Origin: an uncultured Gemmatimonadaceae bacterium
GTDB taxonomy: Bacteria > Gemmatimonadota > Gemmatimonadetes > Gemmatimonadales > Gemmatimonadaceae
Direction of reading: 5' to 3'
Length of the DNA: 64,000 bases
Assembly: GCA_963829055.1 (NCBI GenBank)
Contig: CAWHHI010000012.1
Coordinates: 480,001-544,000 of the forward strand
In this document: one piece after another, positions 284 to 63,377 of the stretch
Layout of the letters: each line of letters begins with the position of its first letter
Position numbering within the stretch: position 1 is the stretch's first letter
Translations under genes and position numbers: made by a program
Notes under the pieces: model-generated
What the model saw: only the letters and a program-made list of their open reading frames with translations
Databases searched by the model: none
Told to the model about the DNA's origin: nothing

Positions 284-344
284 GGTCCACTCCCGACTGA
301 GCGGATCCGATCATTTCACATTGGGTGCCAGGCCCTGTTCCCGC

Positions 345-2042
345 CTAACGCAGCCCACGCCTCGCCACGGCGAGCGCGGCCGCCAGCTCGCTGCGCCGCG
401 CGGCGGACATCGTCGTGAAACACTCGAATAGCGGCGGCGCCCAGAGGCCGACGTCGCTCGCCGCCTGATCTCGCATGCACTTGCGCTCGCGCATCGCGAT
501 CCAGTTGCGCTGAGCGATCCGCATTTGACTCACTTCGTGCGGATCCGGATCGCCGGGCGCGACGCCCGCCGTTCGTCGCATCTCCGCGATCAGCGAGTTA
601 TAGACGCGCTGGAGCGGGGCGTCCGCGAGTGCCAGTTGCGCGCGCAGGCAGGCGCGCTGGTCCTGCATCGTCGCGATACCACATCGTGGGCTCGGCATGT
701 CGCTGGCCACGGAGTCGGGTCGGACGACAGGTGGCGTGACACGCGTGCCGGCTGTCGTCGCAGTCGAGTCATTCGCGTCACTCGAGCGATTCGTATCGAG
801 TGCGACGGTTCCGGCACTGGATGTCACCGGCTTACCCGGCGCACCGAGACCCGGCGCATCGACGGTGGCGGACGGGGCGCCGGAGCGGCCGCCGAACCAC
901 AGGTACCACGAGACTCCGGCGATCGCGAGCGGTACCAGGAGCGCAAGGCTCCGTGTGACCCGCCGCCGCGCGACGCCATCGCGCACGGGATACGCTGGCG
1001 TCGGCACGCTCGACGATTCCCGGAGTCGTCGGATCCACCCGTCCGGGTCGGGATCGGCAAAGTCCACATCATCAGGTCGCGGAATGTCGGCACTCATCGG
1101 CGTGGCCGACGGCGGCGTCGCTATTCGGCGGAATTTGACCGTCGGCGCATCCGCCGGCGCCGGCTCGCCCTCCCGCCGACTCCGCGCCAGCACCGGCGGC
1201 GGATTGTACGTGAGGTGCTCGAGGAACTGGTCGATGTCCTGCCAGCGCCCTTCCCTGTTCTTCACCAGCGCACCCTCGATGGCGAAGAGCAGATTCGCGG
1301 GCACGCGCGGCCTGAGCGACGTGATGCGCGGGAGGTCCTCGTGCTTCTGCCTGTAAATGACGCCGTACAGGCTCTCGCCCGCCCACGGCCGCTCGCCCGT
1401 CAGCAGTTCCCACCCGAGCACGCCAAGGCTGTAGATGTCGCTGCGGCCATCGACGCTCGCGCCGTCGATCTGCTCCGGCGACATGTACTGTGGCGTGCCC
1501 AGCGATGCGCCGAGCATGGTGATCTGCTCGTCACCCTCGATGCGCCGAGCAATCCCGAAGTCCGCGAGCAGTGCTCGGCCGGTTCGTTTGTCGAGGAACA
1601 CGTTCTCGGGCTTGACGTCGCGATGCACGATCCCGCGGCGGTGCGCGTAGCCTAACGCGTTCGCGACGTCCCGCAGCACGCTCTCGGCGTCCTCGGCGCT
1701 GAAGGCGCCATACTCGCGAAGGCGGTCGCGAGCCGTTCCGCCCTCCAGGTATTCCATGATGATCGCGACCGCGCGGTCGCCGATCTCTTCGATGGCCTCG
1801 GTGCGGACAATGTTGGGATGGTCGAGGCCGGCGACGGTGCGAGCCTCGCGCGCAAACCGGTGCAACGCGTCCGGGTCATCGAGATACCGTGCGCGGATCG
1901 CCTTGATCGCGACGAGGGTTCCGGTGACGCGACGCCGCGCGAGGTAGACGGCGGCCATGCCGCCTTGCCCGAGCTCGCGGATGAGCTCGTAGTCGTCTTC
2001 GAGTGCGCGGAGGTCGGTGGGGAAGTCAGTCTCGGGCTGCAT
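345..2042 (-). CDS. Membrane Ser/Thr protein kinase with C-terminal extracytoplasmic LprI/DUF1311-like domain
   Basis: Hanks motifs LGQGGMAAVY, VAIK, HRDVKPEN, DFG, GTPQYMSPEQ. One TM (LALLVPLAIAGVSWYLWF). C-terminal C..QRACL..AD..L...Y..AQRNW...R..C..C pattern. Confidence 0.9.
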   Translation of the reverse strand: MQPETDFPTDLRALEDDYELIRELGQGGMAAVYLARRRVTGTLVAIKAIRARYLDDPDALHRFAREARTVAGLDHPNIVRTEAIEEIGDRAVAIIMEYLEGGTARDRLREYGAFSAEDAESVLRDVANALGYAHRRGIVHRDVKPENVFLDKRTGRALLADFGIARRIEGDEQITMLGASLGTPQYMSPEQIDGASVDGRSDIYSLGVLGWELLTGERPWAGESLYGVIYRQKHEDLPRITSLRPRVPANLLFAIEGALVKNREGRWQDIDQFLEHLTYNPPPVLARSRREGEPAPADAPTVKFRRIATPPSATPMSADIPRPDDVDFADPDPDGWIRRLRESSSVPTPAYPVRDGVARRRVTRSLALLVPLAIAGVSWYLWFGGRSGAPSATVDAPGLGAPGKPVTSSAGTVALDTNRSSDANDSTATTAGTRVTPPVVRPDSVASDMPSPRCGIATMQDQRACLRAQLALADAPLQRVYNSLIAEMRRTAGVAPGDPDPHEVSQMRIAQRNWIAMRERKCMRDQAASDVGLWAPPLFECFTTMSAARRSELAAALAVARRGLR

Positions 2043-2114
2043 CGGCTCGTTTGAGGGCTAACGAGAGGAACGCCGGATGCGTGCCGAAGCGACCGAGCAC
2101 CGAGCCCGTCAATT

Positions 2115-2250
2115 CGGGAATCGGGAATGGGAATCGGGAATCGACCAGCCCGGAGGCTCGAGTGAGCGTCTCTGGGTTGTTGCTTGTCGACCAGCGACCA
2201 GCACGAGCGACAGCTACAAGCTTGCCGTTGATTCCCGATTCCCGATTCCG
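2115..2250. repeat. Inverted pair of (GGGAATC)n / (GATTCCC)n heptamer arrays
   Basis: cgggaatcgggaatgggaatcgggaatcg at 2115-2143 and gattcccgattcccgattccg at 2230-2250. Confidence 0.85.
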
Positions 2251-2436
2251 TCTCACAGTCGTTACGCGCGCTCCATGCTGGACGCAGTGCGTGACGCCGG
2301 ACGCCGCAGCGCGCCATGCCATACCGTCGACGCTGAATCCCGGATCGCCGCCTCGACAATGCGCCTTTCTGGTCATTGTCTCGCGTGCGGCGCGCGAGCA
2401 CCCTGTCGAGGGTCCTTCCGAACACAGGAGGATCGG

Positions 2437-3093
2437 ATGCTTACTCGTTCTCGTCGTCATCGTGTGTCCCTGGTGTGCGGTGTGACAGCCATCGCCTGCG
2501 CCGCCTCCGCGCTGCTCTCGCAGCCGGGAAGAGCGCAGGACACGCCGCAGGACAAGCTGGTGTTCGCACCCGTTCGCGCGAGCGACGTCATGTCGGCCGC
2601 CGACCGACAACGCACCGGCGTGGAGCGCCTAACGCCGGAACAGCGGTTCGCGCTCGATGCATGGCTCACGCGGTACTCGGCGGAGATCCGCGGCAGTGCG
2701 CCGCCGCAACCGCAGCAGGCGACCGGCCGTACGGTCTTCGCCTCGTCGGCTGACGACGCGTCAGCGACTGAACCCGACGACGAAGCCATCCAGCAGCGCG
2801 GCCGCCGCTACCGCGACCAGATCTGGACGCCGCTGATCACGGTCCCACCAGCCGCCCGGCTCGTCTCCACGCCGGACGACGGAAGTTTCGTTCGTCTCGC
2901 GGACGGAACGCTCTGGGAGGTGTATCTGCCGGATCGAACGTCGACCGATGAGTGGCACGCGGGCGACTACATCACGGTGTCGCTGGCATCCACCGCAGTC
3001 GGCGACTTCGACCACGTGCTCGTCGACACGAACGCCAATACGCGTGCACATGCCCGCTTCGTCGACCTCGTAGGAGGATCACGCCGCCGCTGA
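2437..3093 (+). CDS. Secreted hypothetical protein
   Basis: AGGAG RBS then ATG 2437. Signal peptide ending ...GRA|QD. Motifs MSAADRQRTGVERLTPEQRFALDAWL and VRLADGTLWEV. Confidence 0.7.
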   Translation: MLTRSRRHRVSLVCGVTAIACAASALLSQPGRAQDTPQDKLVFAPVRASDVMSAADRQRTGVERLTPEQRFALDAWLTRYSAEIRGSAPPQPQQATGRTVFASSADDASATEPDDEAIQQRGRRYRDQIWTPLITVPPAARLVSTPDDGSFVRLADGTLWEVYLPDRTSTDEWHAGDYITVSLASTAVGDFDHVLVDTNANTRAHARFVDLVGGSRRR

Positions 3094-3445
3094 CCGCGGC
3101 AGCACCGACCGCTGCATGGTTTCGAATGGTAGGTATGGGAAACGAACAAGCGCGGGCGAGTGAGATTCCTCGCCCGCGTTTTCGCGCGTCATCTCGCTTT
3201 GTGTTCGCGGACGGCCTCGGTTCTCCCATCGAGTCGTAGGCGTGCAGCAACCACATCGATCGTGGACGCCGGGTCTATCGAGGACAAGAGTTGTGCCTAA
3301 CGCGGCCTCACAGCCGTATTGGTGCAACATCGTTCGGCACGAATGGTGACGCACGCTCCAACAGCCGGCCGCGGTTGGTTGACAGCCATTCTCGGCCGCG
3401 GTAGCGTCTCGCCGAGCAGTTGGGCTCGCCGACACCAGGTACTCA

Positions 3446-4856: not shown

Positions 4857-7790
4857 CACTGTCGCGCGGGCACGTGCTCGCGCTCCTGCTTGCGGTGACT
4901 GTCGAAGGGTGCGGCCGTGGCGAGCGCCTCACGTCGCGCACGGCCGCCGACTCTGTCTGGTCTGCGGGTAAGGCACATTATGACGCGGGAGCGTACGACA
5001 GCGCGGCAGGACTCTGGACCGTCGGGCTGCGCCTAACGCGTCAAGCCGCCGACTCGGCCGGCCAGGCGCGAACGCTGACCTGGCTCGGCCTCGCGCTCTG
5101 GCACCTCGGGAACCTCGACAGCGCGCGCGCGCTCGAGGACCAGGCGCTGTCGCTCGAGCTACGCCCACAGGATGCTCGCTTGCGATGGCGCACGCTCAAC
5201 GCGCTTGGGTTGATCGAGCGGGATCAGAACCGCTACGAGGAGGCAGCCACCCGTTTCACCGAGGCACTCGCGAGCGCCCGCGCCGCCAACGACGCCGAGG
5301 GCATGGCCAAGGTCGCGGGCAACATTGCTCTCACGGCGGGAGATCTCGGCGATCTGCGCGGCGCTCGCGTCGGCCACCGCGCCTTGCGCGCGGCGGGTCG
5401 CCAGCTGGGCGACGCCGCGACGGAGGCGAACGGTCTTGCCAACGAGGCGATGATCGACGTCTGGGAGGGCAACCCGCGACCGGCGATCGCCAAACTCGAT
5501 ACCGCGTACAAGCTCTACGCCCGAACGGGGTTCGCGGCCGGCGAGCGTAACGTGTGGCGCCAGCTCGCGACCGCGTTCGAGCTCACTGGCGAGTACGATC
5601 GCGCTTTCGCCGCGCTCGACTCGGCGCTCGCGCTCGACCGGCGTGATCACGCGCGGGCGGAGGAGAGCGAGTCGCTTCGCTTGCTCGCCGACCTGCACGC
5701 CGACCTCGGCGACCAGCGTCGGGCGGCGCGCTTCTTCCGGCAGGCAGAGATCATCACCCGCGCGACCGGGGCCGCGTCGAACCTCGCGAGCATCTTGCGC
5801 GGCACGGCTGCGACCGAGCTCGCACTCGGCAACTCCGGCCACGCGCGTGCCGCAGCCACTGAGGCGCTCCGACTGCATCGCGCGTCCGGAGAGCCGCTCG
5901 ATGAGGTGGACGATCTCGTACTGCTCGCCGAAGTGGAAGCGCATGCGGGCAACCGCGACGCCGTCGTTGCGAGGCTCGGTGAGGCCCGCGAGATGGCTGC
6001 GAGGAGTGACGTGCGCGGCGCGCGCGCGACGGTAGCGCTCGCGGCCGCGCGCTTCGCCGACGCGTTAGGCGATGCGCCTGGCACCCTCGGCGCGCTGCGA
6101 GACATCGACTCGACAAGCCTCGCGCTCGACGCCGGCATCGGGCAGCATGCGAGCGCGCTGGCCGCACGCGCGTGGGCGCGACTCGGCCAGCTCGACTCTG
6201 CTGCGGCATCTGGTCGGCGGGCGTGGCGGCGCTCGAAGCGACGCGCGGCAGCCTGCCGTCGGACATGCTGCGCTCGGCGTTCGTCGCCGATCGCGCGGAC
6301 GTGTACGCGGACCTCGCGCTGGTGCTCTTACGGTTGCGGCGCACGGACGAAGCCTTCGTCGTCGCGGACGCCGCGCGAGGACGGGAGCTGCTGACGCATC
6401 TTGGCGCCTTGCGCGATGACGCTGCTGCGTCATCAGCGATTGCGCCGTCACTCCAACAACGCGCCGAGCTGCTGCGGCGCATCGACGCGCTCGTAGAGCG
6501 CGTTCGACGAGGCGGCTCCTCCAGTCGGCCGGAGCGCGGACCCGCCGCGAGGACAACGGACCGGGCCAGTGCCGACGTGGTCACGCAGCTCGCTGCGGCA
6601 CGTGACGAGTACGAGGCACTCATGAGCCGCGCTGCGGAGCGCGCACCTCGCCCCGTCGCGGTGCTCGGCGCGACCTCGCTCTCGGTCGCGCGCGTGCGTG
6701 AGGCGCTAGCGCCCGGCGAGCTTCTCGTCGAGTACCTGCTCACGCGCCAGGGTTTGCTCATCTTCGCCGTCGACCGAGCCGGCGTGCGGGTTGAGCACGT
6801 CGAGGGCTTGCGGGCCAGCGGAGCCGCACTCGTCGAACGGGTGCGTCTCCTTCGTGATCTCTGGGGAACACCACGTCCGGACTGGAGTTCTGGCCTCGCG
6901 GCGTCGTGGGCTCTGGACAGCGCACTCGTCGCGCCACTTCGCGCACGCGGGCTGCTGCGCGGCGTGTCGCGCCTGATCGTGGTGCCGCACGGAGTCCTCG
7001 GACAGGTCCCATTTGCCGCGCTTCAGGACGCCGCGTCGCGCCGGTTCCTGATCGAAGATGTCGCGCTCACACTCCTCCCGTCCGCCGCCGCGCTCCCAGC
7101 GCTCCGGGAGCGTGGCGCACACCTCAGCGGAGTCGAGGGCGCCGATGGCTTCGCGCCGTTCGACCGGCAACTCCCGGCGAGCGCCCGCGAGATCGCCACG
7201 CTTCGGAACGCTGCGAACCACCCACGACTCTGGATCGGGCCGCGAGGCCAACGAGACAGCACTCCGGTCCGCACTCGCCAGCGGCCAGCATCGTGCACGT
7301 GGCGACGCATGGTGTGCTCGACAGTCGAAATCCGATGTTCTCCCACATCGAGCTCGCGATCTCGCCGGCCGGCACCGCGAACGATGACGGTCGCCTCGAA
7401 GCGCACGAGCTGCTTTCCCTCACCGTCCGCAGTCCGCTGGTGTTCGTGTCGGGGTGCGAAACGGGGATCGACTGGAAGTGGAGCCTTGATCCCGTGCGCG
7501 GGAGCGGTGAGCCGACACTGGCTCAGGCCTTCCTGGCCGCGGGCGCGTCATACGTGATCGCGACGCTCTGGCGCATCGATGACGTGGGCGCGTCGATGCT
7601 GGCCGAGCGCTTCTACGCGCGCCTCTCGCGCGTGTCGGTCGCGGAGGCGCTCGCGGCGGCCCAACGCGATCTCCTGCACGACCCACGGTACGCGAGCCCC
7701 TACTACTGGGCCGGCTTCACGCTGAGTGGAGGCGGCGGCTTCGGAGCAGATTCGCAATTCGTCCGGTCGGCATCCGTGTCACCGAACTAG
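4853..7790 (+). CDS. TPR-repeat CHAT-domain (caspase-like) protease with signal/lipoprotein-like N-terminus; apparent frameshifts near 6220, 7245 and 7285
   Basis: Joins ORFs 4853-6394, 6172-7557 and 6906-7790. TPR helices, LIVVPHGVLGQVPFAAL, HVATHG (His), VSGCETG (Cys), ATLWRIDD, PYYWAGF. Confidence 0.85.
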
Positions 7791-7831
7791 CAGATCCTAA
7801 GAGACGCCTAACGCTGCCAAGGAGCCGACCC

Positions 7832-9242
7832 GTGCGACCCTCATCCCGCCATTTTCTCGCCCGCACTGCGATGATCGCGTCGCTCGTGCTCGGTGCCCTG
7901 GGCACGACGAGCTGCACCGATCCCGCCGTCACCTCACCCGGCAGGGTGCCCGCGGCCATGACGCAGCGCGCCGCGGGGGTCAGCGTAAGCGCGACCAACC
8001 CGTCGTACGGCCACCAGGGCCAGACCGGCGAGCAGGTCACGATCACCGGGAGCGGGTTCGCCACGGGCGCCACGATCGAGTGGCAGCGCAACGGCGTCGC
8101 TGACCCTCACGTCGTCGTCCGGAATGCGACGGTCGTGAGCGCGACGCAGATCGACGCCACGATCGACATCGCGTCGGACGCGCAGCTCGCGGAGTATGAC
8201 GTCGCAGTGACGAACGCCGACCGCACCAAGGGGATCGGCAGCGAGCTGTTCGAGATCACCACGGCGACGAGCATCGGAACACTCGGCGGGACCACGCAGG
8301 CCTTCGCGGCGAACGACGTAGCGAGCGGCGCACGCGTGGCAGGCATCAGCTACGTCGGGCAGTCGCGGCACGGCTTCGTGTGGATCGCGCCTAACGGGCC
8401 CATGCGAGATTTGGGTCCTGCCTACGTGAACGCGATCGACATGGCCGGCACGACTGTCGCGGGCGAGACGCAGGGCACAGGGGCATTCCCGGCGCTGTGG
8501 ACACTCGGTGCGGACGGCATCACCTGGTCCGCGCCTGTCCGGCTGCCTCTCGCGCCGACCGCGACCGGCGGCACGGCGCAGGCCATCGGCTCCGACCCTC
8601 TGACCGGCAGCGCGATCATCGTCAGCGGCTCGCAGACGACTCCAGCGGCGAGGAACAAGGTCCTCGATCAGCCGGTGCTCTGGCGCTGGAACGGCAGCGC
8701 GTGGAGTCCAGACCGTCTTACAGCTCCCCGCCGCGTACCAGGGCGTCTCGTTTCAGGCCTACGGAGTGAACGCGCGAGGTCAGGCAGTAGGCGCGGGGGG
8801 TGCGGCGATCTTCTGGGACTCGTTAGGCACGCCCACCGTGCTGCCTGGTTCCCCGGCGGGCACGCGGGAGATCAACGCTGACGGGACCATCGTCGCGGGC
8901 CAGCACAACGGCGTTGCCGCCTACTGGACGGCGACGGTCGACGCTGGCACAGGACACCGAACGTGGAGTGGTCCGTTCGACCTGCCGGGCGGCTGCGACC
9001 AGGTGAGGGGCATCGACAAGCTAGGGAACATGGTCGGCCATGCGTGTCCAGGCTCCCGGTCCGGCGCTGTCGTGTGGCGGCCGCCGTACACGAGCTACAC
9101 GCTGCTTGGGGGGCTCGGTAACTCCAGCGACGCGGGTGCGGCGTACGACATTTCGCCGAATGGTTTCATCGTCGGCTCTGCCCCGACGGGCGTCCCGAAC
9201 AGCGTCACGGTCGGCGCGTACTGGACAATCCTCTCGCCGTAG
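7832..9242 (+). CDS. Secreted lipoprotein-like protein with IPT/TIG-like domain and HAF-like repeats; frameshift near 8730-8760
   Basis: Signal ...LGTTSC, VTITGSGFATGA..YDVAVTN. Repeats IGTLGGTTQAFAAND, AYGVNARGQAVG, GGLGNSSDAGAAYDISPNGFIVG. Confidence 0.7.
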
Positions 9243-9336: not shown

Positions 9337-9407
9337 TCATTTGCCCACCGTCTGAGATGGTAGGGCGTTAGGCGCAACCGTGAAACCTGCCGATTCAGCG
9401 CCGTCGC

Positions 9408-10609
9408 TTACTGCACGGCGTTGATCATGTCGAAGATCGGCAGGTACATGGCGACGACCATGCCGCCGACCACCACGCCGAGGAACACGATCATGATCGG
9501 CTCGAGGAGGCGAGAGGAGGCCGCTCACGGCCGCGTCGACTTCCTCGTCGTAGAAGTCCGCGATCTTCGAGAGCATCTCGTCCAGACCACCCGTCTGCTC
9601 GCCGACCGCGATCATCGAGATGACCATCGGCGGGAACACCGCCGACTTCTGCAGCGGCGCGGCGATCGTGTCACCGCCGGCGATCGACGCGCGCGACTGC
9701 CATGATCGCGTCCTGAATGACGCGGTTGCCGGCCGTCTTCGCCGTGATCTCGAGGCCGTCGAGGATGCTGACGCCGGACGAGATCAGCGTGCCTAACGTG
9801 CGCGTGAAGCGCGACACCGCCGACTTGCGGAGCACGTCGCCCAGCACCGGCACCTTCAGCAGCAGCCTTGTCGATCGTGCAGCTTGCCCGTTCGGCGTCG
9901 CGTAGTACCGCTTGAGCAGGAAGAACGCGCCGGCGATCGCCGCCGCCGATCAGCGTACCAGTAGCCCTTGAGGAAGCGCGAGAGCCCGATCACGATGCGC
10001 GTCGGCAGCGGCAGCGCGAGGCCGACCGAGCCGAACATGGTCTCGAACACCGGAATGACGAAGATGAGCAGCACGCAGATCGCGATCACCGCGACGCTCA
10101 TGATGACGCCCGGGTAGATCATCGCGCCCTTCACCTTTCGGACGAGCGCGTCGTTCTTTTCCATGAACGTCGCGAGGCGCATGAGAATCGTGTCGAGAAT
10201 ACCACCCGCCTCACCGGCCGCGACCATGTTCACGTACAGGTCGCTGAACGCGTTCGGATGCTTGGCGAGCGCGTCGGCGACCGTGTGGCCGGACTCGACG
10301 TCGAACACGACCGCGCGCGTCACCTCCGACAGCACCTTGTTCTCGGTCTGCTTCGCCAGAATGTCGAGCGCCTGCACGAGCGGCAGACCGGCGTTGATCA
10401 TGGTCGAGAACTGACGCGTGAAGATGACGATGTCCCGCATCTTGATGGAGCCGCGGCGTCTTCGCCTTCTTCGCCTCCTCGTCGACCTTGACGACGCTCA
10501 TGCGCTGGCGCCTGAGCTGCGCGACGACCTCTTCGCGCGACGGCGCGTCGATCGTCGCGGTCTTGAGCTCGCCGTTTACCGCCCGCGCGGTGTACGTGTA
10601 TGTAGGCAT
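9408..10609 (-). CDS. pilC: Type IV pilus platform protein (GspF family), several apparent frameshifts
   Basis: MPTYTYTAR..., [58 protein letters not shown], and the end [13 protein letters not shown]. Confidence 0.9.
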
Positions 10610-10638
10610 CGTCTGTTCTCCGTTAGGGATCTTGTTTT

Positions 10639-10722: not shown

Positions 10723-11903
10723 CTACTTCCGTCCTGCTCCCGCCTTCTCCTTGTTCAACCCGCCCGTCAACGGCTGCTCGCCGTTGCCGTTGCTGCTACT
10801 GCCATCGTCGAGCGGCATGCGGCCGATCATGCGCAGGAACTCGTTCGGGTCGCCCGACACGCGAAGACACTCCTCGTCCGTCACCTCCCGGCTCATGTAG
10901 AGCTGGTAGAGCGCGTCGTTCAGCGTCTGCATGCCGTACTTCTTGCCCGACTGCATGAGCGAGTAGATCTGGTGGATCTTGTCGTCGCGAATGAGCGCGC
11001 GAATCGCCGGCGTCACGACGAGGATCTCCGCCGCCATCGCGCGGCCGCGACCCTTCGCCTTCGGCAGCAGCGTCTGCGTGATGATCCCCTCGAGCACGAA
11101 CGCGAGCTGCGCGCGCACCTGCGACTGCTGGTGGCTCGGGAAGACGTCGATGATGCGGTTGATCGCCTCCGCCGCCGAGTTCGTGTGCAGCGTCGCGAAC
11201 GCGAGGTGACCGGTTTCGGCGATCGTCAGCGCGGCCTGGATCGTTTCCAGGTCGCGCATTTCACCGATCAGGATCGTGTCGGGGTCTTCACGCAGCGCGT
11301 ACTTGAGCGCGTTGGCGAACGACTTCGTGTCCGTGCCGACCTCGCGCTGGTTGACGATGCAGCCCTGATGCCGGTGAATGAACTCGATCGGATCTTCGAC
11401 CGTGATGATGTGGCCTTTGCGCTCGCGGTTGATCTTGTCGATCATCGCCGCGAGCGTCGTCGACTTGCCGGAGCCCGTGGGCCCCGTGACCAGCACGAGA
11501 CCGCGCGGCTTCTCCGCCATCTTCGCGATCACGGCCGGAAGTCCGAGATCGGTGAACGAGCGGATGTTGAACGGGATCTGTCGAATGACCATCGACACGC
11601 AGCCGCGCTGCTTGAAGCAGTTGCCGCGGAAGCGCGCGAGGTTCTGGATGCCGAACGAGAAGTCGAGCTCGTCCTCCATCTCGAACCGCTTCTTCTGATT
11701 CTCGGTGAGCACCGAGTACGCGAGCTGCAGCGTGTCCTTCGGCGTGAGCACGTACTCGAGCTCGGCGTTCGTGATGTCGCCGTCGACGCGGAGCTTCGCG
11801 CGCTCGCCGGCGGTGATGTGCAGGTCGGACGCGTCGCGCTCGATCATCTCCTCGAGCAGCGCGCGAAGGTTGACGCTGGTCGGCGGTTGCTGGGAGCGGT
11901 CAT
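10723..11903 (-). CDS. pilT: Type IV pilus retraction ATPase
   Basis: ASDLH, GPTGSGKST, TVEDPIE, ALREDPD, GEMRD, AIRALIRDDKIHQI, GMQT. ATG 11903 is likely out of frame by an indel. Confidence 0.93.
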
Positions 11904-12105
11904 GGAACCGGTGCGATGTGGCGTGTGCAGGTGTGAGGACCGACGTGTGAGCCGAACGACTCACCGAATCCGCTTCCTCTGCGCGATTGCGACCCACGAC
12001 GCGCTGCCTATAGAGGCGGCACTCAGCTACCAACGAGACGGACCGAGGCGCGCCGTCGCGTAACGTGCAGCGAATCCGGTGTGCGTTAGGTCACGCGGCG
12101 CTGCA

Positions 12106-12196
12106 GCCGTCAGTCGTCAGTCGCAGCCGTCAGCTACTGCGGCAGCTCACGGCTGACAGCTCGCGACGTTCGAGCTGATGGCTGACGACCGATGAC
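12106..12196. repeat. Degenerate inverted heptamer arrays (GTCAGTC/GCTGACG-like) between pilB and pilT
   Basis: gccgtcagtcgtcagtcgcagccgtcagc ... gctgacagc ... gctgatggctgacgaccgatgac. Confidence 0.55.
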
Positions 12197-12203
12197 TTAG
12201 CTG

Positions 12204-14039
12204 CTACTGCGCTCCGGTCTCGCGAATCACCTGCTCGAGTGTCGTGATGCCCTTCAGCACCTTGAGCCAGCCGTCCATGCGCAGCGTCAGCATGCCTTCC
12301 TCGATGGCGCCGTCGCGGATCTCCGCGGCGCCGACGTTCTGCAGGATCAGGCGCCGCAGCTTCGGCGTCATGATCATGACTTCGTACAGACCCTGACGGC
12401 CCTTGAGCCCCGTGCCGCCGCACGCGTCGCAGCCCTTTCCCTTGAAGTACGGCAGCTGGCCGATCGTCGTCTCGAGCGACAGCCCTTCGAGGTGCGGCGC
12501 TGCGTCGGGCGTTGCCCGCGACGCGCGCATTGTCCAGCGCTTCCTGCGTGAACCGGAGATCGCCGAGCGTCGTGTCGCGCGTCACCTTCGCGCCCGACGA
12601 GCTCGCTGTCGTCCGGCGTGTACTTCACCCGGCACTGCGAGCAGATGCGCCTAACGAGTCGCTGCGCGAGCACCAGGTTGAGCGCCGACGCCACGTTGAA
12701 CGGCTCGAGACCCATGTCGAGCAGACGCGTCACCGTCTCCGGCGCCGAGTTCGTGTGCAGCGTCGAGAGCACGAGGTGACCCGTGAGCGCGGCCTTGATC
12801 GCGATGCCGCCCGTCTCCAGGTCTCGAATCTCACCGACCATGATGATGTTCGGGTCCTGACGCAGGAACGCCTTCAGCGCCGCCGCGAACGTCATCCCGA
12901 TGTCGGTGCGCACCTGCACCTGGTTGATCCCGAAGAGGTTGTACTCGACGGGATCTTCGGCCGTCATGATGTTGACGTCGATGTTGTTGATCTTCGACAG
13001 CGCCGAATACAGCGTCGTCGTCTTTCCGGAACCCGTCGGGCCGGTGACGAGCACCATGCCGTACGGATTCTGCACCGCCTCCATCAGCTCGCGCTCGGCG
13101 CGCGGCTCGATGCCGAACTTCTCGAGGTCGAGCGTCAGGTTGCCCTTGTCGAGAATTCGGAGCACGACCTTTTCGCCGAACAGCGTCGGCAGCGTCGAGA
13201 CGCGGTAGTCGATGACCTTGTTGCCGTACTTCAGCTTGATGCGCCCGTCCTGCGGCACGCGACGCTCGGCGATGTTGAGCGACGCCATGATCTTGAAGCG
13301 CGAGATGAGCGCCGCCTTGAGCTTGATCGGGCGGCTTCATGACTTCGCTGAGCGCGCCGTCGATGCGGTAGCGAACGCGCAGCTCGTGCTCGAAGCACTC
13401 GAAGTGGATGTCCGACGCGCCGCGCTTCACGGCGTCGGTCATGATCGCGTTGATCAGCTTGACGACCGGCGCGTCATCGACCGCGGCCGCCATCGCCGCC
13501 GCCGAGACGTCGTCGTCCGCGTCCTCGAGCACCTCAATGTCGCCGAGCGCATCGGCGGCAATGTCCTCGAGCAGCGCGGCCATCTGGACGTCCGACCCTT
13601 CGTAGTGCTTCTCGACGAAGTTGCGGAGCGTGAACTCCCCGGCGAGCACCGGGAAGATGTCGTAGCGCGTGATGAACTTCAGGTCATCGATGACCGCGAT
13701 GTTGCTCGGATCGGCCATCGCGACGGTGAGCGTGCGACCGTCGCGCTTGAGCGGCAGGATCAGGTGCTTCGTCGCGAGGTCGTTCGGGATCGAGCTTGAT
13801 GATCCGCGGATCGACCTCGAACCGCGTGAGGTCGACCGCCGGCATGCGGTGCTGCCGCGCGATGAGCTTCGTGAGCTCGTTCTCGTCGATGAAGCCGAGC
13901 TTCACGAGGCAGTAGCCGAGCCGCATGCCGCTCTGCGTCTGCTCCTGGAGGGCGCGCGAGAGCTGCTCCTTGCGAGATGAGCCCTTCGCGGACGAGCACT
14001 TCGCCGATTCGATCCTGGAGTCGCTACCGGAGCTGCCAC
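12204..14039 (-). CDS. pilB: Type IV pilus assembly ATPase, several apparent frameshifts
   Basis: [67 protein letters not shown] and CDAC Zn pairs, [10 protein letters not shown]. Confidence 0.92.
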
Positions 14040-17907: not shown

Positions 17908-17917
17908 CGCCTCCCAT

Positions 17918-29357: not shown

Positions 29358-29386
29358 CGAACGTGTCGTTTCGATACGTCGCCAGT

Positions 29387-30743: not shown

Positions 30744-30793
30744 TCCAACATCAGGCGAGTAGCGCCTAACGGTGCCCCACGTCCACCGCTCCG

Positions 30794-51828: not shown

Positions 51829-52588
51829 ATGAGAGATGCCATTCGGCATTTCACCGCCGAGTTCATCGGGATCTTCGCACTGGTGTTCGTCGGGAGCGGC
51901 GCCATCGATGATGGCGCGCCATACGAACTCCGCGACGCCGCTGATTCTGGCGGCCACCGCGCATGGATTGATTCTGGCCGTGATGGTGACGGCGACGATG
52001 CGGATCTCCGGCCACCTCAACCCGGCCGTCACGATCGGTTTTCTCGTCACTCGCCGCATCGAGCCCATGATGGCGGCGATCTACATCTGTGCCCAGGTGC
52101 TCGGTGCCATCGCCGCCGCGTACGCACTGAAAGCGACCGTTCCCGCCGAGTTGTTCGCGGCGGCGCGCGGCGGCGGCCAATCGATCTCGCTCGATGTCAC
52201 CGCCGCTCAGGGATTTTTCCTCGAGCTCATCGCGACGTTCTTCCTCACGTTCGTCGTCTTCGGCACGGCGGTCGACCCGAGCGCGCCGAAAGTCGGTGGC
52301 TTCGCGATCGGCCTGACGGTGGCGGCCGACATTCTCGCCATCGGGCCGCTCACCGGCGCGTCCATGAATCCTGCCCGCTCGTTAGGACCGGCGGTTGCCA
52401 CCGGCGTGTTCGAGGGACAGGTCGTGTACTGGACTGGCCCGTTCGTCGGCGCGATGCTCGCCGCAGCGATCTACGACGCGCTCTTCCTGCGGCGCTCGCC
52501 CGAGCTGCCGTTGCATGGTGCCGTGCGCCCCGAGGAACCGATAACGGCAACACCGCTGCCGCCGCCGAAGGGACGCAGAAAACATTGA
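51829..52588 (+). CDS. MIP-family channel (aquaporin); one apparent frameshift near 51907
   Basis: AEFIGIFALVFVG in one frame. SGHLNPAVT and GASMNPARS in the next. Confidence 0.88.
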
Positions 52589-55302: not shown

Positions 55303-56003
55303 CGCGTCACTGCCTCGCGATATGCCTCGCGATACGTCTCGAGCTCCACATCGCCGCGCGGTTCGTGGGTGAGGAATCGGCCGTCGCGCATGATCGCGGT
55401 GTGAGACGCGAGCGCGAGTCCTTCGCCGAGGTGATGTGTCACCAGCACGAGCGAAGCCCCACTGGCCTTGAGCGATCGAAGCGCGTCGCTCAGTGCCGAC
55501 GCGCCGCCTTCGTCGAGGCCCGTGTACGGCTCATCGAGCAGCACCACCCGAGGATCGTGCACGATGGCTCGCGCGATCGACACTCGTTGCTGCATTCCTC
55601 GGCTGAGCGAGCGGACCGGCGAGTCGGCCCGATCCTGCAGCCGCATGCGCTGGAGCGCACGAAGCGCCGCGTCGCGCGGTGCGAGGACGCCATACATGCG
55701 CGCCGTGAACTCGACGTTCTCGAGCGCGGTGAGCGCCGAGTACAACATGCTCTGATGCGAGATCAACCCCACGACGGATCGCGCGGCGGCGCCCCCGGGT
55801 AACGCGACGCCATCGATGCGTGCGTTTCCGCTCGTGGGACGCAGGAGGCCAGCGAGGACGCGTAGCAGCGTGGTCTTGCCGGCACCGTTAGGCCCGAAGA
55901 GCGCCAGGCATTCGCCTCGATGCACAGCAAACGTCAGCGCTCGCACCGCGACGCGACGTCCGAAGCTTCTGGTGAGCCCGCTGGCCTCGATCGTCGGAGG
56001 CAT
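55299..56003 (-). CDS. ccmA: Heme ABC exporter ATPase
   Basis: GPNGAGKTT, LSRGMQQR, LLDEPYTGLD. Start is ATG 56003 or 56075. Confidence 0.9.
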   Translation of the reverse strand: MPPTIEASGLTRSFGRRVAVRALTFAVHRGECLALFGPNGAGKTTLLRVLAGLLRPTSGNARIDGVALPGGAAARSVVGLISHQSMLYSALTALENVEFTARMYGVLAPRDAALRALQRMRLQDRADSPVRSLSRGMQQRVSIARAIVHDPRVVLLDEPYTGLDEGGASALSDALRSLKASGASLVLVTHHLGEGLALASHTAIMRDGRFLTHEPRGDVELETYREAYREAVTR

Positions 56004-57003: not shown

Positions 57004-59004
57004 ATGTCCGAAGACATTGACGTCCTTCTTCATGAGCATCGCAAGTTCGAGCCGCCCGAAGCGTTCCGGCGCGACGCGCACGTATCGTCAACGGAGCTGT
57101 ATCGCGAGGCTGAGCGTGACCCGGAACGCTTCTGGGCTCACATGGCGGGCGCCCTCGAGTGGTCGCGACCATGGGACACGGTGCTCGAATGGACGCCGCC
57201 TCACGCGAAGTGGTTCGTGGGCGGAAAGCTCAATGCGTCCGTCAACTGTCTCGATCGTCACATTCGGACCGCGCGCCGCAACAAGGCTGCGCTGATCTTC
57301 GAGGGCGAGCCCGGCGATCGGCGCACGCTCACGTACTGGGACCTCTACGTCGAGGTCAACAAGTTCGCGAACGTGCTCAAACGACTTGGCGTTAGGCGCG
57401 GGGATCGCGTCGGCATCTACATGCCGCTCATCCCCGAAGTCGTGATCGCGATGCTCGCCTGTGCGCGCATCGGCGCCATCCACTCCGTGGTGTTCGGCGG
57501 CTTCTCCTCCGAGTCGCTGCGCGACCGCATGAACGACGCGAAGGCGAAGGTCGTCATCACGGCGGACGGCGGCTATCGGCGCGGGCAGATCGTCCCGCTC
57601 AAGCGCAACACCGATAAGGCGCTCGAAGGAGCACCGACCGTGGAGCACGTGATCGTCGTCATGCGCCGCCCGGGCGCGGGAGGCGACGAGGCGTTCGCCC
57701 ACATGCAGGAAGGGCGCGATCACTGGTGGCACCGACTCATGGCCGACGCACCAGCGTTCTGCGAGCCCGAAGCGATGGACGCCGAGGACGTGCTGTACAT
57801 CCTCTACACGTCCGGCACGACGGGCAAGCCGAAGGGCATCGTCCACACCACTGGCGGCTACCTCACCGGCGTCACAGCGACGGCGAAGCTCGTTTTCGAC
57901 CTCCGCGACGACGACGTGTTCTGGTGTACCGCCGACGTAGGCTGGGTGACCGGTCACTCGTATGTCGTGTACGGCCCGCTCGCCAATGGCGCGACGTGCG
58001 TGATGTACGAAGGCGCGCCCGATTGGCCGGACAAGGACCGATTCTGGGAGATCTGCGCGCGCCACGGCGTGACCATCCTGTATACCGCACCGACCGCCAT
58101 TCGCGCATTCATGAAGTGGGGCAACCAGTACCCCGCCCGCCATGATCTCAGCCGGCTGCGCTTGTTAGGCAGCGTCGGGGAGCCGATCAATCCCGAAGCC
58201 TGGATGTGGTATCACGAGCACATAGGCGGACGACGTTGCCCCATCGTGGACACGTGGTGGCAGACGGAGACCGGAGCCATTGCCATCTCCCCGCTTCCGG
58301 GTGTCACCGCCACGAAGCCCGGCAGCGCGACGACCGCGCTGCCCGGATTCTCCGCCGAGCTGCTCGACGCGCAAGCGAATCCGATTCCGGTGGGCGGCGG
58401 ACTGCTCGCCATCACACGGCCGTGGCCGTCGATGCTGCGCACCATCTGGGAAGACGACGCCCGGTATGTGCAGACCTACTTCTCGAAATGGCCCGGGCGC
58501 CCAGACCTCTACTTCCCAGGCGACGGCGCCAAGCGCGACGCGGATGGCTACTTCTGGATCCTCGGCCGCGTGGACGACGTGTTGAACGTCGCCGGGCATC
58601 GCATCGGAACGATGGAGGTGGAGTCGGCGCTGGTCGAGCATCCTGCGGTCGCCGAAGCCGCCGTGGTCGGAAAGACGCACGCGATCAAGGGCCAGGCGAT
58701 CGCCGCGTTCGTCACGTTGCGCGAAGGCCAGAACCCGACGTCCGAGCTGCGTGACGAGCTCCGGCAGTTCGTCGCCGACAAGATCGGCGCGCTCGCGCGG
58801 CCAGATGATATTCTTTTTTCCGCCGATCTGCCGAAGACACGCTCCGGGAAGATCATGCGTCGCCTGCTTCGCGACATTGCGGAAAATCGCATGCTCGGCG
58901 ACACGACCACGCTCGCCGATCCGAATGTCGTCGCAAACCTCGCGGGGGAATGGCAGTCGGGGCAGTCGCCTATCGCGCGCGAGGGGATCGAAGAGGAGGA
59001 ATGA
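57004..59004 (+). CDS. acs: Acetate--CoA ligase
   Basis: [50 protein letters not shown]. Confidence 0.97.
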
Positions 59005-62356: not shown

Positions 62357-62451
62357 ATGTTGACGTCACGCGAACGTGTGCAGCCAAACAAACGGCTTTC
62401 GATGCGTCGTCGGTTTGCGTTAGATTTGTGTTACCCCTACTCAAGGAATTC

Positions 62452-62730
62452 ATGGCCAAACAGAAGGCACGTCGTCGCAGAGAGGTTGCGGAGCCAACAG
62501 TGTTCGAGCAGGCCCGCGACGAGATGTTCCAGCACGTGATGCGTTGCGGTGTTATCGGCGCTGACCCGGAACACCAGGTCGAGTGGTTCGACGAAACCAT
62601 GCGGTACCTCGGCGAGCGGTACCATGAGCTGTCCGATGGCGAGCTCAAGGATCTCCGCACGCTCGGTGAACGGTTCGCGGCACCTCCAAAAGCGAAGACT
62701 CCGGAAGTCGATGCCGCTTCGGCGGCGTAG
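62452..62730 (+). CDS. Hypothetical protein
   Basis: AAGGA RBS, ATG 62452, protein-like ORF followed by a terminator. Confidence 0.72.
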   Translation: MAKQKARRRREVAEPTVFEQARDEMFQHVMRCGVIGADPEHQVEWFDETMRYLGERYHELSDGELKDLRTLGERFAAPPKAKTPEVDAASAA

Positions 62731-62747
62731 ACCTCAGTTGCGATAGA

Positions 62748-62776
62748 AACGCCCCGCTCTCGGGGCGTTCTTGTTA
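62748..62776 (+). terminator. Rho-independent terminator
   Basis: aacgccccg-ctct-cggggcgtt followed by cttgtt. Confidence 0.65.
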
Positions 62777-62857
62777 TCGCTCGCGGTGGCGCGAGCCGTG
62801 ACCCGTAGTGCCTCGAGGCAGGCGAGGCGAGTCCGGACCTGTGCGCCCTAACGACGC

Positions 62858-63377
62858 TCAGCGGCGACCGGGCATCGCGCGGCGGACGACGACCCCGAAG
62901 CGCGCGCCGCCACCGAACCCTACCTCGAACGCCGGCATCATCCGCCCGACCGCCGGACCCTCGATGCCTAACGCGCCGATCAGCACGCCGCGCCAGTGTT
63001 CGTCGCCGTCGTAGATCGCGCCCAGGCCGCCGCTGCCATATGGTGCCCAGCGGAATTCCCGGAGCGGATCCACCACGAATCGCACGAGTCCGTCGACACG
63101 CCCCGCAGCCATCGCGTTTCCGTTCGACCACGCCTGACCCGCGGCGGCGACGAGTCCCAGCCGCACGTACGTGCTCGCTGGTACGCTGAACCCGACACCG
63201 ACATGCGCGGCGGGCGCGCGCGCGCCCACGAAATCTGCGCGCGCTTCCGGTTGCACTCGCGCACTTCCGGGACCTGCCGTTCCGCTGCGCGTGAACGTCT
63301 CGCGCGGCGCCGGAAATGATGGCGATGGTTGCGATCCGAAGTACCAGCGGCCAGCCCGGAGTGGCGATGCGCCTCAC
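62858..63377 (-). CDS. Probable exported beta-strand protein; signal peptide lies in another frame (possible indel near 63270)
   Basis: ORF 62858-63256 has alternating beta strands (EVGFGGGARFGVVVR). Upstream frame has ..IATIAIISGAARDVHA|Q. Confidence 0.5.

What the first reader, a model, noticed from the sequence alone, without database searches (positions are those of the whole stretch)
344..62973. Highly iterated non-palindromic heptamer CCTAACG/CGTTAGG written into genes across the whole window
Seen: I count about 44 exact copies by eye. CCTAACG occurs at 344, 1651, 2628, 3296, 5032, 7807, 8390, 9792, 12650, 17709, 17903, 20667, 21036, 22254, 22651, 22952, 26668, 27539, 29353, 30765, 32520, 36126, 43464, 43902, 62847 and 62967. 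CGTTAGG occurs at 6063, 8821, 9366, 10621, 12084, 14039, 16406, 20251, 23771, 30312, 32698, 35144, 37271, 44845, 49876, 52380, 55886 and 57390. About 7 more sites have CCTAAC plus another base. A base-composition estimate at about 68% GC gives about 7 copies, and fewer given how rare TA is here. It sits in several frames, using codons rare in high-GC genes: CTA-ACG (L-T), CCT-AAC (P-N), TTA-GGC (L-G), GTT-AGG (V-R). It also supplies stop codons (345, 17905, 29355). There is no strong strand polarity (26:18). Known: frame-independent, genome-wide motifs of this kind include DNA uptake sequences (Neisseria, Pasteurellaceae) and cyanobacterial HIP1, whereas Chi and KOPS are strand-polarised. Inference: a DNA-level signal, such as an uptake sequence, a modification site or a nucleoid-protein site. 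I know of no description of it for this lineage.
Basis: partly seen in the sequence, partly recalled or inferred. Interest (0 to 1): 0.82.

Follow-up and report, generated by a model that had tools for sequence, protein, structure and literature searches.

The report
Hyper-abundant genome word GCCTAACG, Gemmatimonadaceae
This soil bacterium has written one eight-letter DNA word about once per kilobase through genes and spacers, against its own codon habits, much like the DNA-uptake tags of Neisseria and Haemophilus; the word also spells the conserved end of integron gene-cassette sites, and what reads it is unknown.

Summary
All 44 listed heptamers are present (shuffles give 2.8). The true core is the octamer GCCTAACG. 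The genome (7.78 Mb, Gemmatimonadaceae) has 5004 copies, 162 times a motif-masked Markov expectation and 22 times a codon-aware null.

It is a DNA-level signal:
- It uses all four stop-free frames and also lies in spacers.
- It shows no strand or replication polarity.
- Copies avoid each other within 200 bp.
- 36 of 55 orthologous sites are kept in congeners, against 23% for any heptamer.
- It is missing from foreign or chimeric blocks of the same assembly.
- Only some one-off variants are enriched.

It is patchy. It is rich in about a dozen genera of one order. One congener of a rich genus has 66 copies against about 3500-4100. No word-rich genome appeared among 401 Acidobacteriota.

The word equals the R' core (C-GTTAGGC) of this order's integron attC sites. 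Integrase, ComEA, PilT and ComEC do not track richness.

Best reading (0.4): an uptake-sequence-like self tag built by biased uptake and recombination.

This scan has found the same word before in other Gemmatimonadaceae genomes. My literature searches found no description.

The parts
344..350 (+). word copy; its CTA gives the TAG stop of the Ser/Thr kinase gene 345-2042(-)
1651..1657 (+). word copy; read GCG-TTA-GGC in the kinase gene (-)
2628..2634 (+). word copy; C-CTA-ACG frame
3296..3302 (+). word copy; outside my gene calls
5032..5038 (+). word copy; CTA-ACG in the TPR gene
6063..6069 (-). word copy; TTA-GGC in the TPR gene
7807..7813 (+). word copy; outside my gene calls
8390..8396 (+). 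word copy; CCT-AAC frame
8821..8827 (-). word copy; GTT-AGG frame
9366..9372 (-). word copy; outside my gene calls
9792..9798 (+). word copy; TTA-GGC frame
10621..10627 (-). word copy; beside a heptamer-array repeat
12084..12090 (-). word copy; between the pilT-family and pilB-like genes
12650..12656 (+). word copy; GTT-AGG in the pilB-like T2SSE gene (-)
14039..14045 (-). word copy; at the 3' side of the ComEA-like region
16406..16412 (-). word copy; GTT-AGG frame
17709..17715 (+). word copy; CTA-ACG frame
17903..17909 (+). word copy; supplies a TAA stop (crude gene call)
20251..20257 (-). word copy; kept in G001, G002, G004
20667..20673 (+). word copy; kept in G001, G002; TCCGAGCG in G004
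21036..21042 (+). word copy; kept in G001, G002, G004
22254..22260 (+). word copy; kept in 4 of 4 aligned congeners
22651..22657 (+). word copy; private to this genome (GCCGAGCG, GCCGAACG etc. in 5 congeners)
22952..22958 (+). word copy; kept in 5 of 5 congeners
23771..23777 (-). word copy; kept in 4 of 5 congeners
26668..26674 (+). word copy; absent in G005 (GACTCGCG)
27539..27545 (+). word copy (CCCTAACG); kept in 3 of 5 congeners
29353..29359 (+). word copy; CTA-ACG frame; kept in 3 congeners
30312..30318 (-). word copy; supplies a TAG stop (crude call); kept in 2 of 5 congeners
30765..30771 (+). word copy; no aligned ortholog
32520..32526 (+). word copy; TTA-GGC in a TonB-dependent receptor gene (-)
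32698..32704 (-). word copy; CCT-AAC in the same gene
35144..35150 (-). word copy; CTA-ACG in the second receptor gene; kept in 4 of 4 congeners
36126..36132 (+). word copy; TTA-GGC; private (CCCGAGCG etc. in 4 congeners)
37271..37277 (-). word copy; CTA-ACG; kept in 3 of 4 congeners
43464..43470 (+). word copy; TTA-GGT frame
43902..43908 (+). word copy; TTA-GGC frame
44845..44851 (-). word copy; CCT-AAC frame
49876..49882 (-). word copy; GTT-AGG frame
52380..52386 (-). word copy; TTA-GGA frame
55886..55892 (-). word copy; CCT-AAC in an ABC ATPase gene (-)
57390..57396 (-). word copy; GTT-AGG in the acetyl-CoA synthetase gene (+)
62847..62853 (+). word copy; outside my gene calls
62967..62973 (+). 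word copy; TTA-GGC frame
10723..14788 (-). Candidate DNA-uptake machinery in the window, not shown to read the word. It holds a pilT-family ATPase (10840-11868), a PilB/MshE-type ATPase split over two frames (12374-13718) and a ComEA-like HhH region (14302-14424, with no intact ORF around it in this assembly).

Best explanation
GCCTAACG (loosely Y-[G>A>C]-C-[C>A]-TAAC-[G>A]-M) is a lineage-specific DNA-level 'self word'. A sequence-specific reader recognises it on duplex or incoming DNA whatever the gene, frame or strand. I think it most likely works like the DNA uptake enhancing sequences (USS/DUS) of Pasteurellaceae and Neisseriaceae. Under this reading, competent cells take up fragments carrying the word preferentially. 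Homologous recombination then fixes word-bearing alleles. Point substitutions that create the word therefore accumulate (molecular drive) wherever proteins tolerate them, up to about one copy per fragment. Shown here: the word's abundance, its frame independence, the lack of polarity, the short-range exclusion, its conservation, its absence from foreign DNA, and the graded tolerance by position. The word's identity with the integron attC R' core may mean that the same specificity also favours import of gene cassettes.
For: Abundance: 5004 octamers, or 0.64 per kb (0.82 per kb for the heptamer). This is the top word at k=5-8 under order 1-3 Markov nulls, 162 times a motif-masked order-3 expectation and 22 times a synonymous-codon shuffle. 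Frames and regions: the word lies in all four stop-free frames (1214 CCT-AAC, 782 CTA-ACG, 1585 TTA-GGC, 555 GTT-AGG) and in spacers. It holds 57% of all TTA codons. No polarity: 3154 on + against 3237 on -; neighbouring copies share orientation in 0.48-0.57 of cases on 12 contigs; correlation with GC skew has no consistent sign. Short-range exclusion: 149 gaps under 100 bp against 509 expected, 259 against 468 at 100-200 bp, and no excess of inverted pairs. Conservation by substitution only: 36 of 55 aligned sites are kept in five congeners at 77-80% identity, against 20-25% of all heptamers. Absence from foreign DNA: blocks of 31-50 kb in the same assembly lack the word; four of the eight housekeeping genes tested from them have a second, 46-58% identical copy elsewhere. 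Density is also lower in low-GC bins. Position tolerance: enrichment of one-off variants is confined to positions 0, 7 and one change at position 2 (GCATAACG, 583 against 55, with the same flank preferences), as expected of a binding-energy landscape. These are the features listed for USS/DUS in PMC1939737 (passages read): non-palindromic, 35-65% inside ORFs, a slight non-coding excess, no orientation bias, even spacing, one site bound per fragment, and mismatched forms over-represented. Machinery: uptake genes exist, namely ComEC, a ComEA-like region, a secretin, 7 pilin-like genes and PilT. ComEA-like and PilT genes lie 2-3.5 kb apart in at least 33 of 40 panel genomes.
Against: No uptake, competence or binding has been shown for any Gemmatimonadota; my search for the phylum name together with 'uptake sequence' found 0 papers. 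The competence genes do not discriminate: HHH_3/ComEA was found in 40 of 40 and PilT in 41 of 41 genomes, word-rich and word-poor alike. No ComP_DUS-type receptor was found (the genome is 86% complete). In this assembly the ComEA-like region and the PilB-like gene are frame-broken, either by assembly error or as real pseudogenes. Unlike DUS, no dialects were seen. The same word recurs in separate genera and in all three families sampled in the order. A single-gene tree needs 6 changes of the 'rich' label, at least 3 of them forced. One congener (G294) has 66 copies against 3479-4141 in three others. The exact identity with the attC R' core is not predicted by an uptake model alone.
Confidence: 0.4

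Rival explanations
1. HIP1-like word of unknown cellular function. The octamer would be the site of a methyltransferase, a repair or recombination factor, or an abundant chromosome-binding protein. It would be kept by selection or by biased repair inside the cell, with no role in uptake.
For: Abundance, presence inside genes and conservation at orthologous sites are also properties of cyanobacterial HIP1 (recalled, not checked here). Short-range exclusion would also suit a protein with a large footprint. Richness varies sharply between close relatives, as an accessory enzyme gene would.
Against: The word is not a palindrome, unlike HIP1 and most methylase/dimer sites. No one-off variant is strongly depleted: the lowest observed/expected ratio is 0.64, so there is no sign of a very-short-patch-type substrate being converted. 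No candidate enzyme was identified. Modification could not be tested, because only assembled contigs were served, not raw reads.
Confidence: 0.3
2. Integron-linked reading. The word is a solitary R box bound by the integron integrase or a related tyrosine recombinase. The genome-wide copies would be selected, or generated, as recombinase binding or landing sites.
For: In cassette arrays of word-poor relatives (G027:C95, G027:C80, G025:C3, G025:C26) every attC has R'' = GCCTAAC and most have R' = C-GTTAGGC (a few read GTTAGAC or GTTAGC). The latter is the octamer letter for letter. G027:C80 and G025:C26 end at an integrase gene. This genome has its own integron at C20:198.7-209 kb, whose attC sites begin GCCTAACGC. 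The literature gives R'' as RYYYAAC, R' as GTTRRRY and GCCTAAC as the aadB attC R'' (PMC12901181, passages read). The same word recurring in separate lineages fits a conserved reader.
Against: Integrase does not track richness. It scores over the cut-off in 24 of 41 relatives, many of them word-poor. It was not found in word-rich G002, G004 and G402, and it is fragmented in the richest genome, G014. Genome-wide copies lack an L box or an inverted partner: 49 attC-like pairs genome-wide (among 5630 GCCTAAC copies), at or below my rough estimate of chance (~110), and no excess of close inverted pairs. Flanks carry almost no information. Genomic insertion sites of integrases need only GWT (bioRxiv 10.1101/2022.09.11.507474, passages read). 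Thousands of perfect landing sites inside genes would be harmful. No known recombinase step converts sites by substitution.
Confidence: 0.15
3. Chi-like or other replication-oriented signal (Chi, KOPS) for a RecBCD/AddAB-type or FtsK-type motor.
For: It is a non-palindromic octamer, over-represented and conserved.
Against: There is no orientation bias at any scale tested. The fraction of neighbours sharing orientation is about 0.5. Correlation with GC skew ranges from -0.87 to +0.45 across 12 contigs. The enrichment (162-fold) is far beyond what I recall for known Chi sites.
Confidence: 0.05
4. Artefact, a dispersed mobile element, or a by-product of codon or peptide preference.
For: The assembly is a long-read metagenome bin with frame-broken genes.
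Against: The word is present in short-read assemblies of relatives from other studies and in 13 genomes of two genera. Foreign blocks in the same assembly lack it. Flanks are unique sequence. Orthologs differ by substitutions, not insertions. It survives the synonymous-codon shuffle and uses the genome's rarest codons.
Confidence: 0.02

Closest known systems
DNA uptake enhancing sequences: USS of Pasteurellaceae and DUS of Neisseriaceae
   Same: Both are short non-palindromic words at roughly one per kilobase. Both lie mostly inside genes in several frames with a mild non-coding excess. Both lack orientation bias, are spaced more evenly than chance, are conserved, have some mismatched forms over-represented, and are missing from foreign DNA (USS/DUS properties from PMC1939737).
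   Different: The phylum is different, with no known competence. No uptake bias has been shown. No ComP_DUS homolog was found. No dialects were seen between genera. Distribution is patchy even within a genus. No AT-rich flanking segments appear. Few copies form inverted pairs. The word coincides with an integron core site.
Integron attC/attI core sites (R' GTTRRRY, R'' RYYYAAC)
   Same: The octamer is letter for letter the R' core plus the preceding C of this order's attC sites, and its first seven letters are the R'' core.
   Different: Genome-wide copies are solitary and sit in both orientations inside ordinary conserved genes. They have no L box, no hairpin partner, no cassette structure and no link to integrase presence.
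HIP1 (highly iterated palindrome) of cyanobacteria
   Same: Both are hyper-abundant octamers written into genes, conserved, and of unexplained mechanism (HIP1 properties recalled, not checked here).
   Different: HIP1 is a palindrome; this word is not.
Chi and KOPS
   Same: Both are over-represented non-palindromic octamers.
   Different: Chi and KOPS are polarised with replication; this word is not.

Membership tests
DNA uptake enhancing sequences (USS/DUS) | Hyper-abundant short non-palindromic word at about one per kb | tested here: met
   5004 octamers and 6391 heptamers in 7.78 Mb; 162 times the masked Markov expectation and 22 times the codon-aware null
DNA uptake enhancing sequences (USS/DUS) | [quoted passage not shown] | tested here: met
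   3154 against 3237; neighbour orientation agreement 0.48-0.57; no consistent correlation with GC skew. The genome is in 20 contigs, so origin and terminus were not located.
DNA uptake enhancing sequences (USS/DUS) | Inside and outside genes, in several frames, with copies not clustered | tested here: met
   Four frames used; 1776 intergenic and 468 edge copies of 6391 by a crude gene caller that covers only 76% of the genome. Gaps under 200 bp: 408 observed against 978 expected.
DNA uptake enhancing sequences (USS/DUS) | Some mismatched forms also over-represented | tested here: met
   ACCTAACG 41x, CCCTAACG 27x, GCCTAACA 33x, GCATAACG 10.5x; most core one-offs lie between 0.6x and 1.6x, four reach 2.2-3.0x
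DNA uptake enhancing sequences (USS/DUS) | Competent cells preferentially take up DNA carrying the word | not testable with these tools
   Needs an uptake assay in a word-rich strain
DNA uptake enhancing sequences (USS/DUS) | Host has a working natural-transformation machinery | tested here: inconclusive
   ComEC, a ComEA-like region, a secretin, pilins and PilT are present. They are equally present in word-poor relatives, and two of them are frame-broken in this assembly.
DNA uptake enhancing sequences (USS/DUS) | Dedicated receptor of the ComP_DUS type (Neisseriaceae) | tested here: not met
   No PF16732 match at E <= 0.1 in this genome, which is 86% complete
DNA uptake enhancing sequences (USS/DUS) | Word varies between related lineages (dialects) | tested here: not met
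   The same octamer tops 80-kb samples of G305, G350 and G212 and is enriched in G173. No other word was found in word-poor G096.
Integron attC site | R box matching GTTRRRY / RYYYAAC | tested here: met
   The word is GCCTAAC plus G; the order's attC sites carry R'' GCCTAAC and mostly R' C-GTTAGGC
Integron attC site | Paired R''/L''...L'/R' imperfect palindrome of about 50-150 nt, in co-oriented arrays beside intI | tested here: not met
   Only 49 attC-like pairs genome-wide; no excess of close inverted pairs; orientation is random. One true array lies at C20:198.7-209 kb.
HIP1-type highly iterated palindromes | Palindromic word | tested here: not met
   The reverse complement of GCCTAACG is CGTTAGGC (sequence itself)
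Chi / KOPS | Strand polarity tied to replication direction | tested here: not met

The most novel reading that the evidence does not exclude
The word is an uptake tag whose specificity is anchored on the integron attC R' core. On this reading, some Gemmatimonadales have a DNA-import receptor tuned to the conserved end of gene cassettes. Transformation would then preferentially harvest cassettes for the integron, and kin DNA along with them. The cell's own chromosome would become saturated with the tag as a by-product of biased uptake and recombination. This would explain why separate lineages converge on the same eight letters instead of drifting into dialects.
Probability: 0.12. Interest if true: 0.9.

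Novelty: new variant of a known kind. Interest (0 to 1): 0.72.

Why it matters
Genome-wide uptake-type words are accepted in only two proteobacterial families. A 2025 preprint on them (abstract seen in the listing) still treats only those two. A third case in a mostly uncultured soil phylum would matter in three ways if uptake bias is shown:
- It would show that self-biased DNA import evolved independently.
- It would give a sequence handle for genetic work on Gemmatimonadota.
- It would give a test bed for the molecular-drive model, because close relatives differ about 50-fold in copy number.

The letter-for-letter match to the integron core site ties it to a second open question, namely how cassettes travel between cells. 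Natural transformation has just been shown to feed cassettes to integrons in Vibrio (PMC12614218, abstract read).

There is also a practical use. The word works as a barcode that exposes foreign or chimeric segments in metagenome bins.

Tried and rejected
- **Maximal-order Markov ranking.** It hid the word because its sub-words are enriched too. Lower orders and a motif-masked model were used instead.
- **Other words in relatives (dialects).** The candidate words in 22-kb loci (ACGGTAGAC, CAGATGA, ACCAACTC, ACCGTAAA) turned out to be tandem heptamer or octamer arrays in inverted pairs, not dispersed words. The 80-kb samples showed no alternative word.
- **Correlating richness with gene content.** Integrase, HHH_3/ComEA and PilT are present in rich and poor genomes alike. 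ComP_DUS was not found. Minor pilins were located but not profiled across genomes, because short divergent pilins would give ambiguous absences.
- **An earlier scan note said the word also fills an unrelated group of soil bacteria.** I sampled 401 Acidobacteriota genomes and found no word-rich genome. The best balanced count was 299 in 4.9 Mb, level with the control word. Five other genomes were also poor. Other phyla were not sampled.
- **Base modification.** Only assembled contigs were served, not raw reads. Laying contigs of four runs showed related strains covering window 19001-29000 at 90-99% identity. None of the 40 listed differences (of 667) falls in a word copy, but the list is truncated, so this is weak.
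- **Small word-free islands (8-16 kb, GC 0.62-0.64).** They hold ordinary metabolic genes and one plasmid-type replication initiator. They are not clearly mobile.
- **attG sites.** The published consensus is only GWT, so it does not explain the octamer.

Full report
**Observation**

CCTAACG occurs 44 times in the window at exactly the listed coordinates, 26 on the + strand and 18 on the - strand. One hundred dinucleotide-preserving shuffles gave a mean of 2.76 and a maximum of 8. Seven further CCTAAC sites end in another base, and 35 of the 44 are the octamer GCCTAACG. Window GC is 0.64-0.70.

The window is C12:480001-544000 of a 7,784,024-base assembly in 20 contigs, with GC 0.666. Completeness is 86% and contamination 4%. 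Record titles of the closest acetyl-CoA-synthetase loci place it in the Gemmatimonadaceae.

**The unit and its excess**

- Genome-wide there are 6391 heptamers, 3154 on + and 3237 on -, or 0.82 per kb.
- Position -1 is G in 78% of copies and A in 13%. Beyond the octamer the flanks carry at most 0.16 bit per position.
- GCCTAACG has 5004 copies. It is the most over-represented word at k=8, and its sub-words lead at k=5-7, under Markov orders 1 to 3: 131, 102 and 258 expected.
- With all copies masked before training, the order-3 expectation is 30.8, a 162-fold excess.
- A maximal-order Markov ranking misses the word, because its sub-words are enriched too.

**It is a DNA-level signal**

My own crude gene caller found 6734 genes covering 76% of the genome, so intergenic counts are overestimates. 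With those calls:

- Copies lie in all four frames that avoid a stop: CCT-AAC 1214, C-CTA-ACG 782, xCG-TTA-GGx 1585 and xxC-GTT-AGG 555. The two stop-containing frames hold 8 and 3 copies. A further 1776 copies lie outside genes and 468 at gene edges.
- Sense and antisense orientations are about equal, 2004 against 2143.
- Shuffling synonymous codons within each gene (20 replicates) gives 342 heptamers against 4150 observed, and 151 octamers against 3304. This null is conservative, because it keeps the rare codons that the word itself supplies.
- The word holds 1589 of 2772 TTA codons (57%), 784 of 3991 CTA, 1221 of 8882 CCT and 556 of 6437 AGG.
- It also supplies 269 of 817 TAA stops and 231 of 1706 TAG stops.

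**Polarity and spacing**

On the 12 contigs over 200 kb, neighbouring copies share orientation in 0.48-0.57 of cases. The net orientation per 50-kb bin correlates with GC skew at r from -0.87 to +0.45, with no consistent sign.

Gaps between copies average 1201 bp. Short gaps are depleted: 149 against 509 expected under 100 bp, and 259 against 468 at 100-200 bp. Gaps of 300-1500 bp are enriched. All four orientation pairs are equally common, and close inverted pairs are not enriched.

**Conservation**

Five congeners align to window 19001-39000 at 77-80% nucleotide identity. The word is intact at 36 of 55 aligned sites, against 20-25% of all heptamers. The congeners are related, so these sites are not independent observations.

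Where the word is missing, the ortholog has ordinary GC-rich spellings such as GCCGAGCG, GCCGAACG or GCCCAGCG. The changes are substitutions, not insertions.

**Foreign DNA lacks the word**

Three blocks have no copy. All lie at or near contig ends: C6:5440-55038, C11:1-44055 and C6:591808-623330.

They encode housekeeping genes, among them the trp and aro genes, FtsK, FolD and PepA. Several of these are frame-broken. FtsK, chorismate synthase, PepA and FolD each have a second copy elsewhere at only 46-58% identity.

These blocks come from a distant organism, either as assembly chimeras or as very recent transfers. They also serve as an internal control against a sequencing artefact.

Ten-kb bins with GC below 0.63 hold about 3.4 copies, against 8-9 elsewhere. 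Smaller word-free islands hold ordinary genes and one plasmid-type replication initiator.

Against the masked model, one-off variants are enriched only at:

- position 0 (A 41-fold, C 27-fold, T 5.6-fold);
- position 7 (A 33-fold, C and T 8-fold);
- one change at position 2, GCATAACG, with 583 copies against 55.

GCATAACG is itself a solitary dispersed word with the same flank preferences: Y before, M then G after. A-to-G changes at positions 4 and 5 are about 3-fold enriched and C-to-T at position 2 is 2.2-fold. All other core changes lie between 0.64 and 1.6.

No variant is strongly depleted, so nothing suggests a very-short-patch-type conversion of one particular substrate.

**Distribution**

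- All 7 genomes of the window's genus are rich, with 2501-5112 octamers. G014 of another genus has 6360 in 5.1 Mb. Most other relatives have 6-60, below the reversed control word.
- In a 401-genome sample of the phylum, rich or moderately rich genomes are confined to one order. They comprise about ten genera of the window's family, one genus of a second family (181-1061 copies) and, two genera of a third family.
- Within one genus, three species have 3479-4141 copies and a fourth (G294) has 66.
- In 80-kb samples the same octamer tops the lists of G305, G350 and G212 and is enriched in G173. Word-poor G096 has no alternative word.
- On a quick maximum-likelihood tree of acetyl-CoA synthetase, the 'rich' label needs 6 changes, at least 3 of them forced by well-supported branches. 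Shuffled labels need 9.5 on average. The tree used 62 of the 80 loci plus the window. The 18 loci left out were partial or from other phyla: L002, L003, L014, L029, L057, L063-L065, L067, L068, L070-L075, L077, L078. This is one gene, and it may itself have been transferred.
- None of 401 Acidobacteriota genomes sampled is rich.
- The tallies include genomes flagged unpublished: G013, G086, G204, G125, G575, G447 and G472. All are word-poor, and no conclusion rests on them.

**The integron coincidence**

In word-poor relatives the few hits cluster on one strand, about 550 bp apart. These clusters are integron cassette arrays.

Each attC reads GCCTAAC-A...GAAGCTG......CAGCTTA...C-GTTAGGC. So R'' is GCCTAAC in every attC and R' plus the preceding C is the octamer in most, with a few GTTAGAC or GTTAGC. 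G027:C80 and G025:C26 end at integrase genes.

This genome has its own integron. An IntI-like gene lies at C20:208041-208958 (265.7 bits, at the cut-off). Beside it is a co-oriented array whose attC sites begin GCCTAACGC.

The literature defines R'' as RYYYAAC and R' as GTTRRRY, and gives GCCTAAC as the aadB attC R'' (PMC12901181, passages read).

The genome-wide copies are nevertheless not attC sites:

- Only 49 attC-like pairs exist genome-wide, and the flanks are unique sequence.
- Integrase scores over the cut-off in 24 of 41 relatives, rich and poor alike.
- Integrase was not found in rich G002, G004 and G402 and is fragmented in G014.
- Published genomic insertion sites of integrases need only GWT (bioRxiv 10.1101/2022.09.11.507474, passages read).

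**Uptake machinery**

The genome has the following:

- ComEC.
- A secretin.
- Seven pilin-like genes, four of them in one cluster.
- PilT-family ATPases.
- In this very window, a pilT-family gene (10840-11868, - strand), a PilB/MshE-type ATPase split over two frames (12374-13718) and a ComEA-like HhH region (14302-14424) with no intact ORF around it.

ComEA-like and PilT genes lie 2-3.5 kb apart in at least 33 of 40 panel genomes (coordinates).

These genes are found in 40 of 40 and 41 of 41 genomes, rich and poor alike. They permit the uptake reading but do not support it specifically. No ComP_DUS-type pilin was found.

**Interpretation**

These are the features listed for USS/DUS in PMC1939737 (passages read). 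That makes 'works like an uptake sequence, spread by biased uptake plus recombination' the best-supported mechanism, at 0.4.

Several results count against it:

- No competence is known in the phylum (0 papers; the top 10 listed do not mention the genus).
- The machinery does not discriminate between rich and poor genomes.
- There are no dialects.
- The distribution is patchy.
- The attC identity is unexplained.

The rivals are a HIP1-like intracellular function (0.3), an integrase or tyrosine-recombinase reading (0.15), a Chi-like signal (0.05) and an artefact or element (0.02).

The boldest reading the evidence allows is that the uptake specificity is anchored on the cassette core. That would couple transformation to cassette capture, a link recently shown in Vibrio (PMC12614218, abstract read).

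**Novelty**

- No paper in the library holds the word as a term.
- No paper links Gemmatimonadetes with uptake sequences.
- New here are the position-tolerance map with the second word GCATAACG, the quantified short-range exclusion, the orthologous conservation figures and the use of word-free blocks to expose foreign segments. Also new here are the negative correlation tests for IntI, ComEA and PilT, the conserved comEA-pilT neighbourhood and the negative Acidobacteriota sample.

Noticed in passing
G000 C6:5440-55038, C11:1-44055, C6:591808-623330 (outside the window): Three blocks of 31-50 kb at or near contig ends have no copy of the word. They carry housekeeping genes, and four of the eight tested duplicate a gene elsewhere at 46-58% identity. 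They are probably chimeric joins or very recent foreign DNA in this metagenome bin.
   Followed up: yes
window 28388-28508; also 10638-10723 and 2114-2143: Intergenic elements made of 4-5 tandem heptamers (GGGAATC), a spacer of about 55 nt in the best example (28388-28508; about 17 nt at 10638-10723), and the same heptamers inverted. Relatives have the same architecture with other units (ACGGTAG in L056, CAGATGA in L049, an octamer ACCAACTC in L026). Metagenome contig depth over 28353-28686 is 660-1980 against about 10 nearby. Function unknown.
   Followed up: partly
window 10723-14788 (- strand): A cluster of a pilT-family ATPase, a PilB/MshE-type ATPase and a ComEA-like HhH region. The comEA-pilT neighbourhood recurs in at least 33 of 40 related genomes. 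In this assembly the PilB-like gene is split over two frames and the ComEA-like region has no intact ORF. This may be long-read indel error or real decay.
   Followed up: partly
window 56601-56689 (- strand): A c-di-GMP-I-GGC riboswitch aptamer (62.2 bits, gathering score 59) lies upstream of an ABC-transporter ATPase gene (55299-56003, - strand).
   Followed up: partly
G000 C20:198700-208958: This genome's own integron: an IntI-like gene (265.7 bits, right at the family cut-off) beside about ten co-oriented sites that begin GCCTAACGC, of which at least two show an R'-like partner downstream.
   Followed up: partly
genome-wide in G000; 4 copies in the window: A second solitary dispersed word, GCATAACG, with 583 copies against 55 expected. 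It shares the flank preferences of the main word and is probably a tolerated variant for the same reader.
   Followed up: partly
Acidobacteriota sample: G595, G812, G489, G709, G734, G459, G780: Strongly one-stranded counts of the octamer (for example 6 against 168, and 100 against 5) in otherwise poor genomes. These probably mark large integron cassette arrays with the same R' core in another phylum. Not inspected.
   Followed up: no
window 44260-44302: Six tandem copies of a GTTAGCT-like heptamer (a 21-nt unit repeated twice).
   Followed up: no
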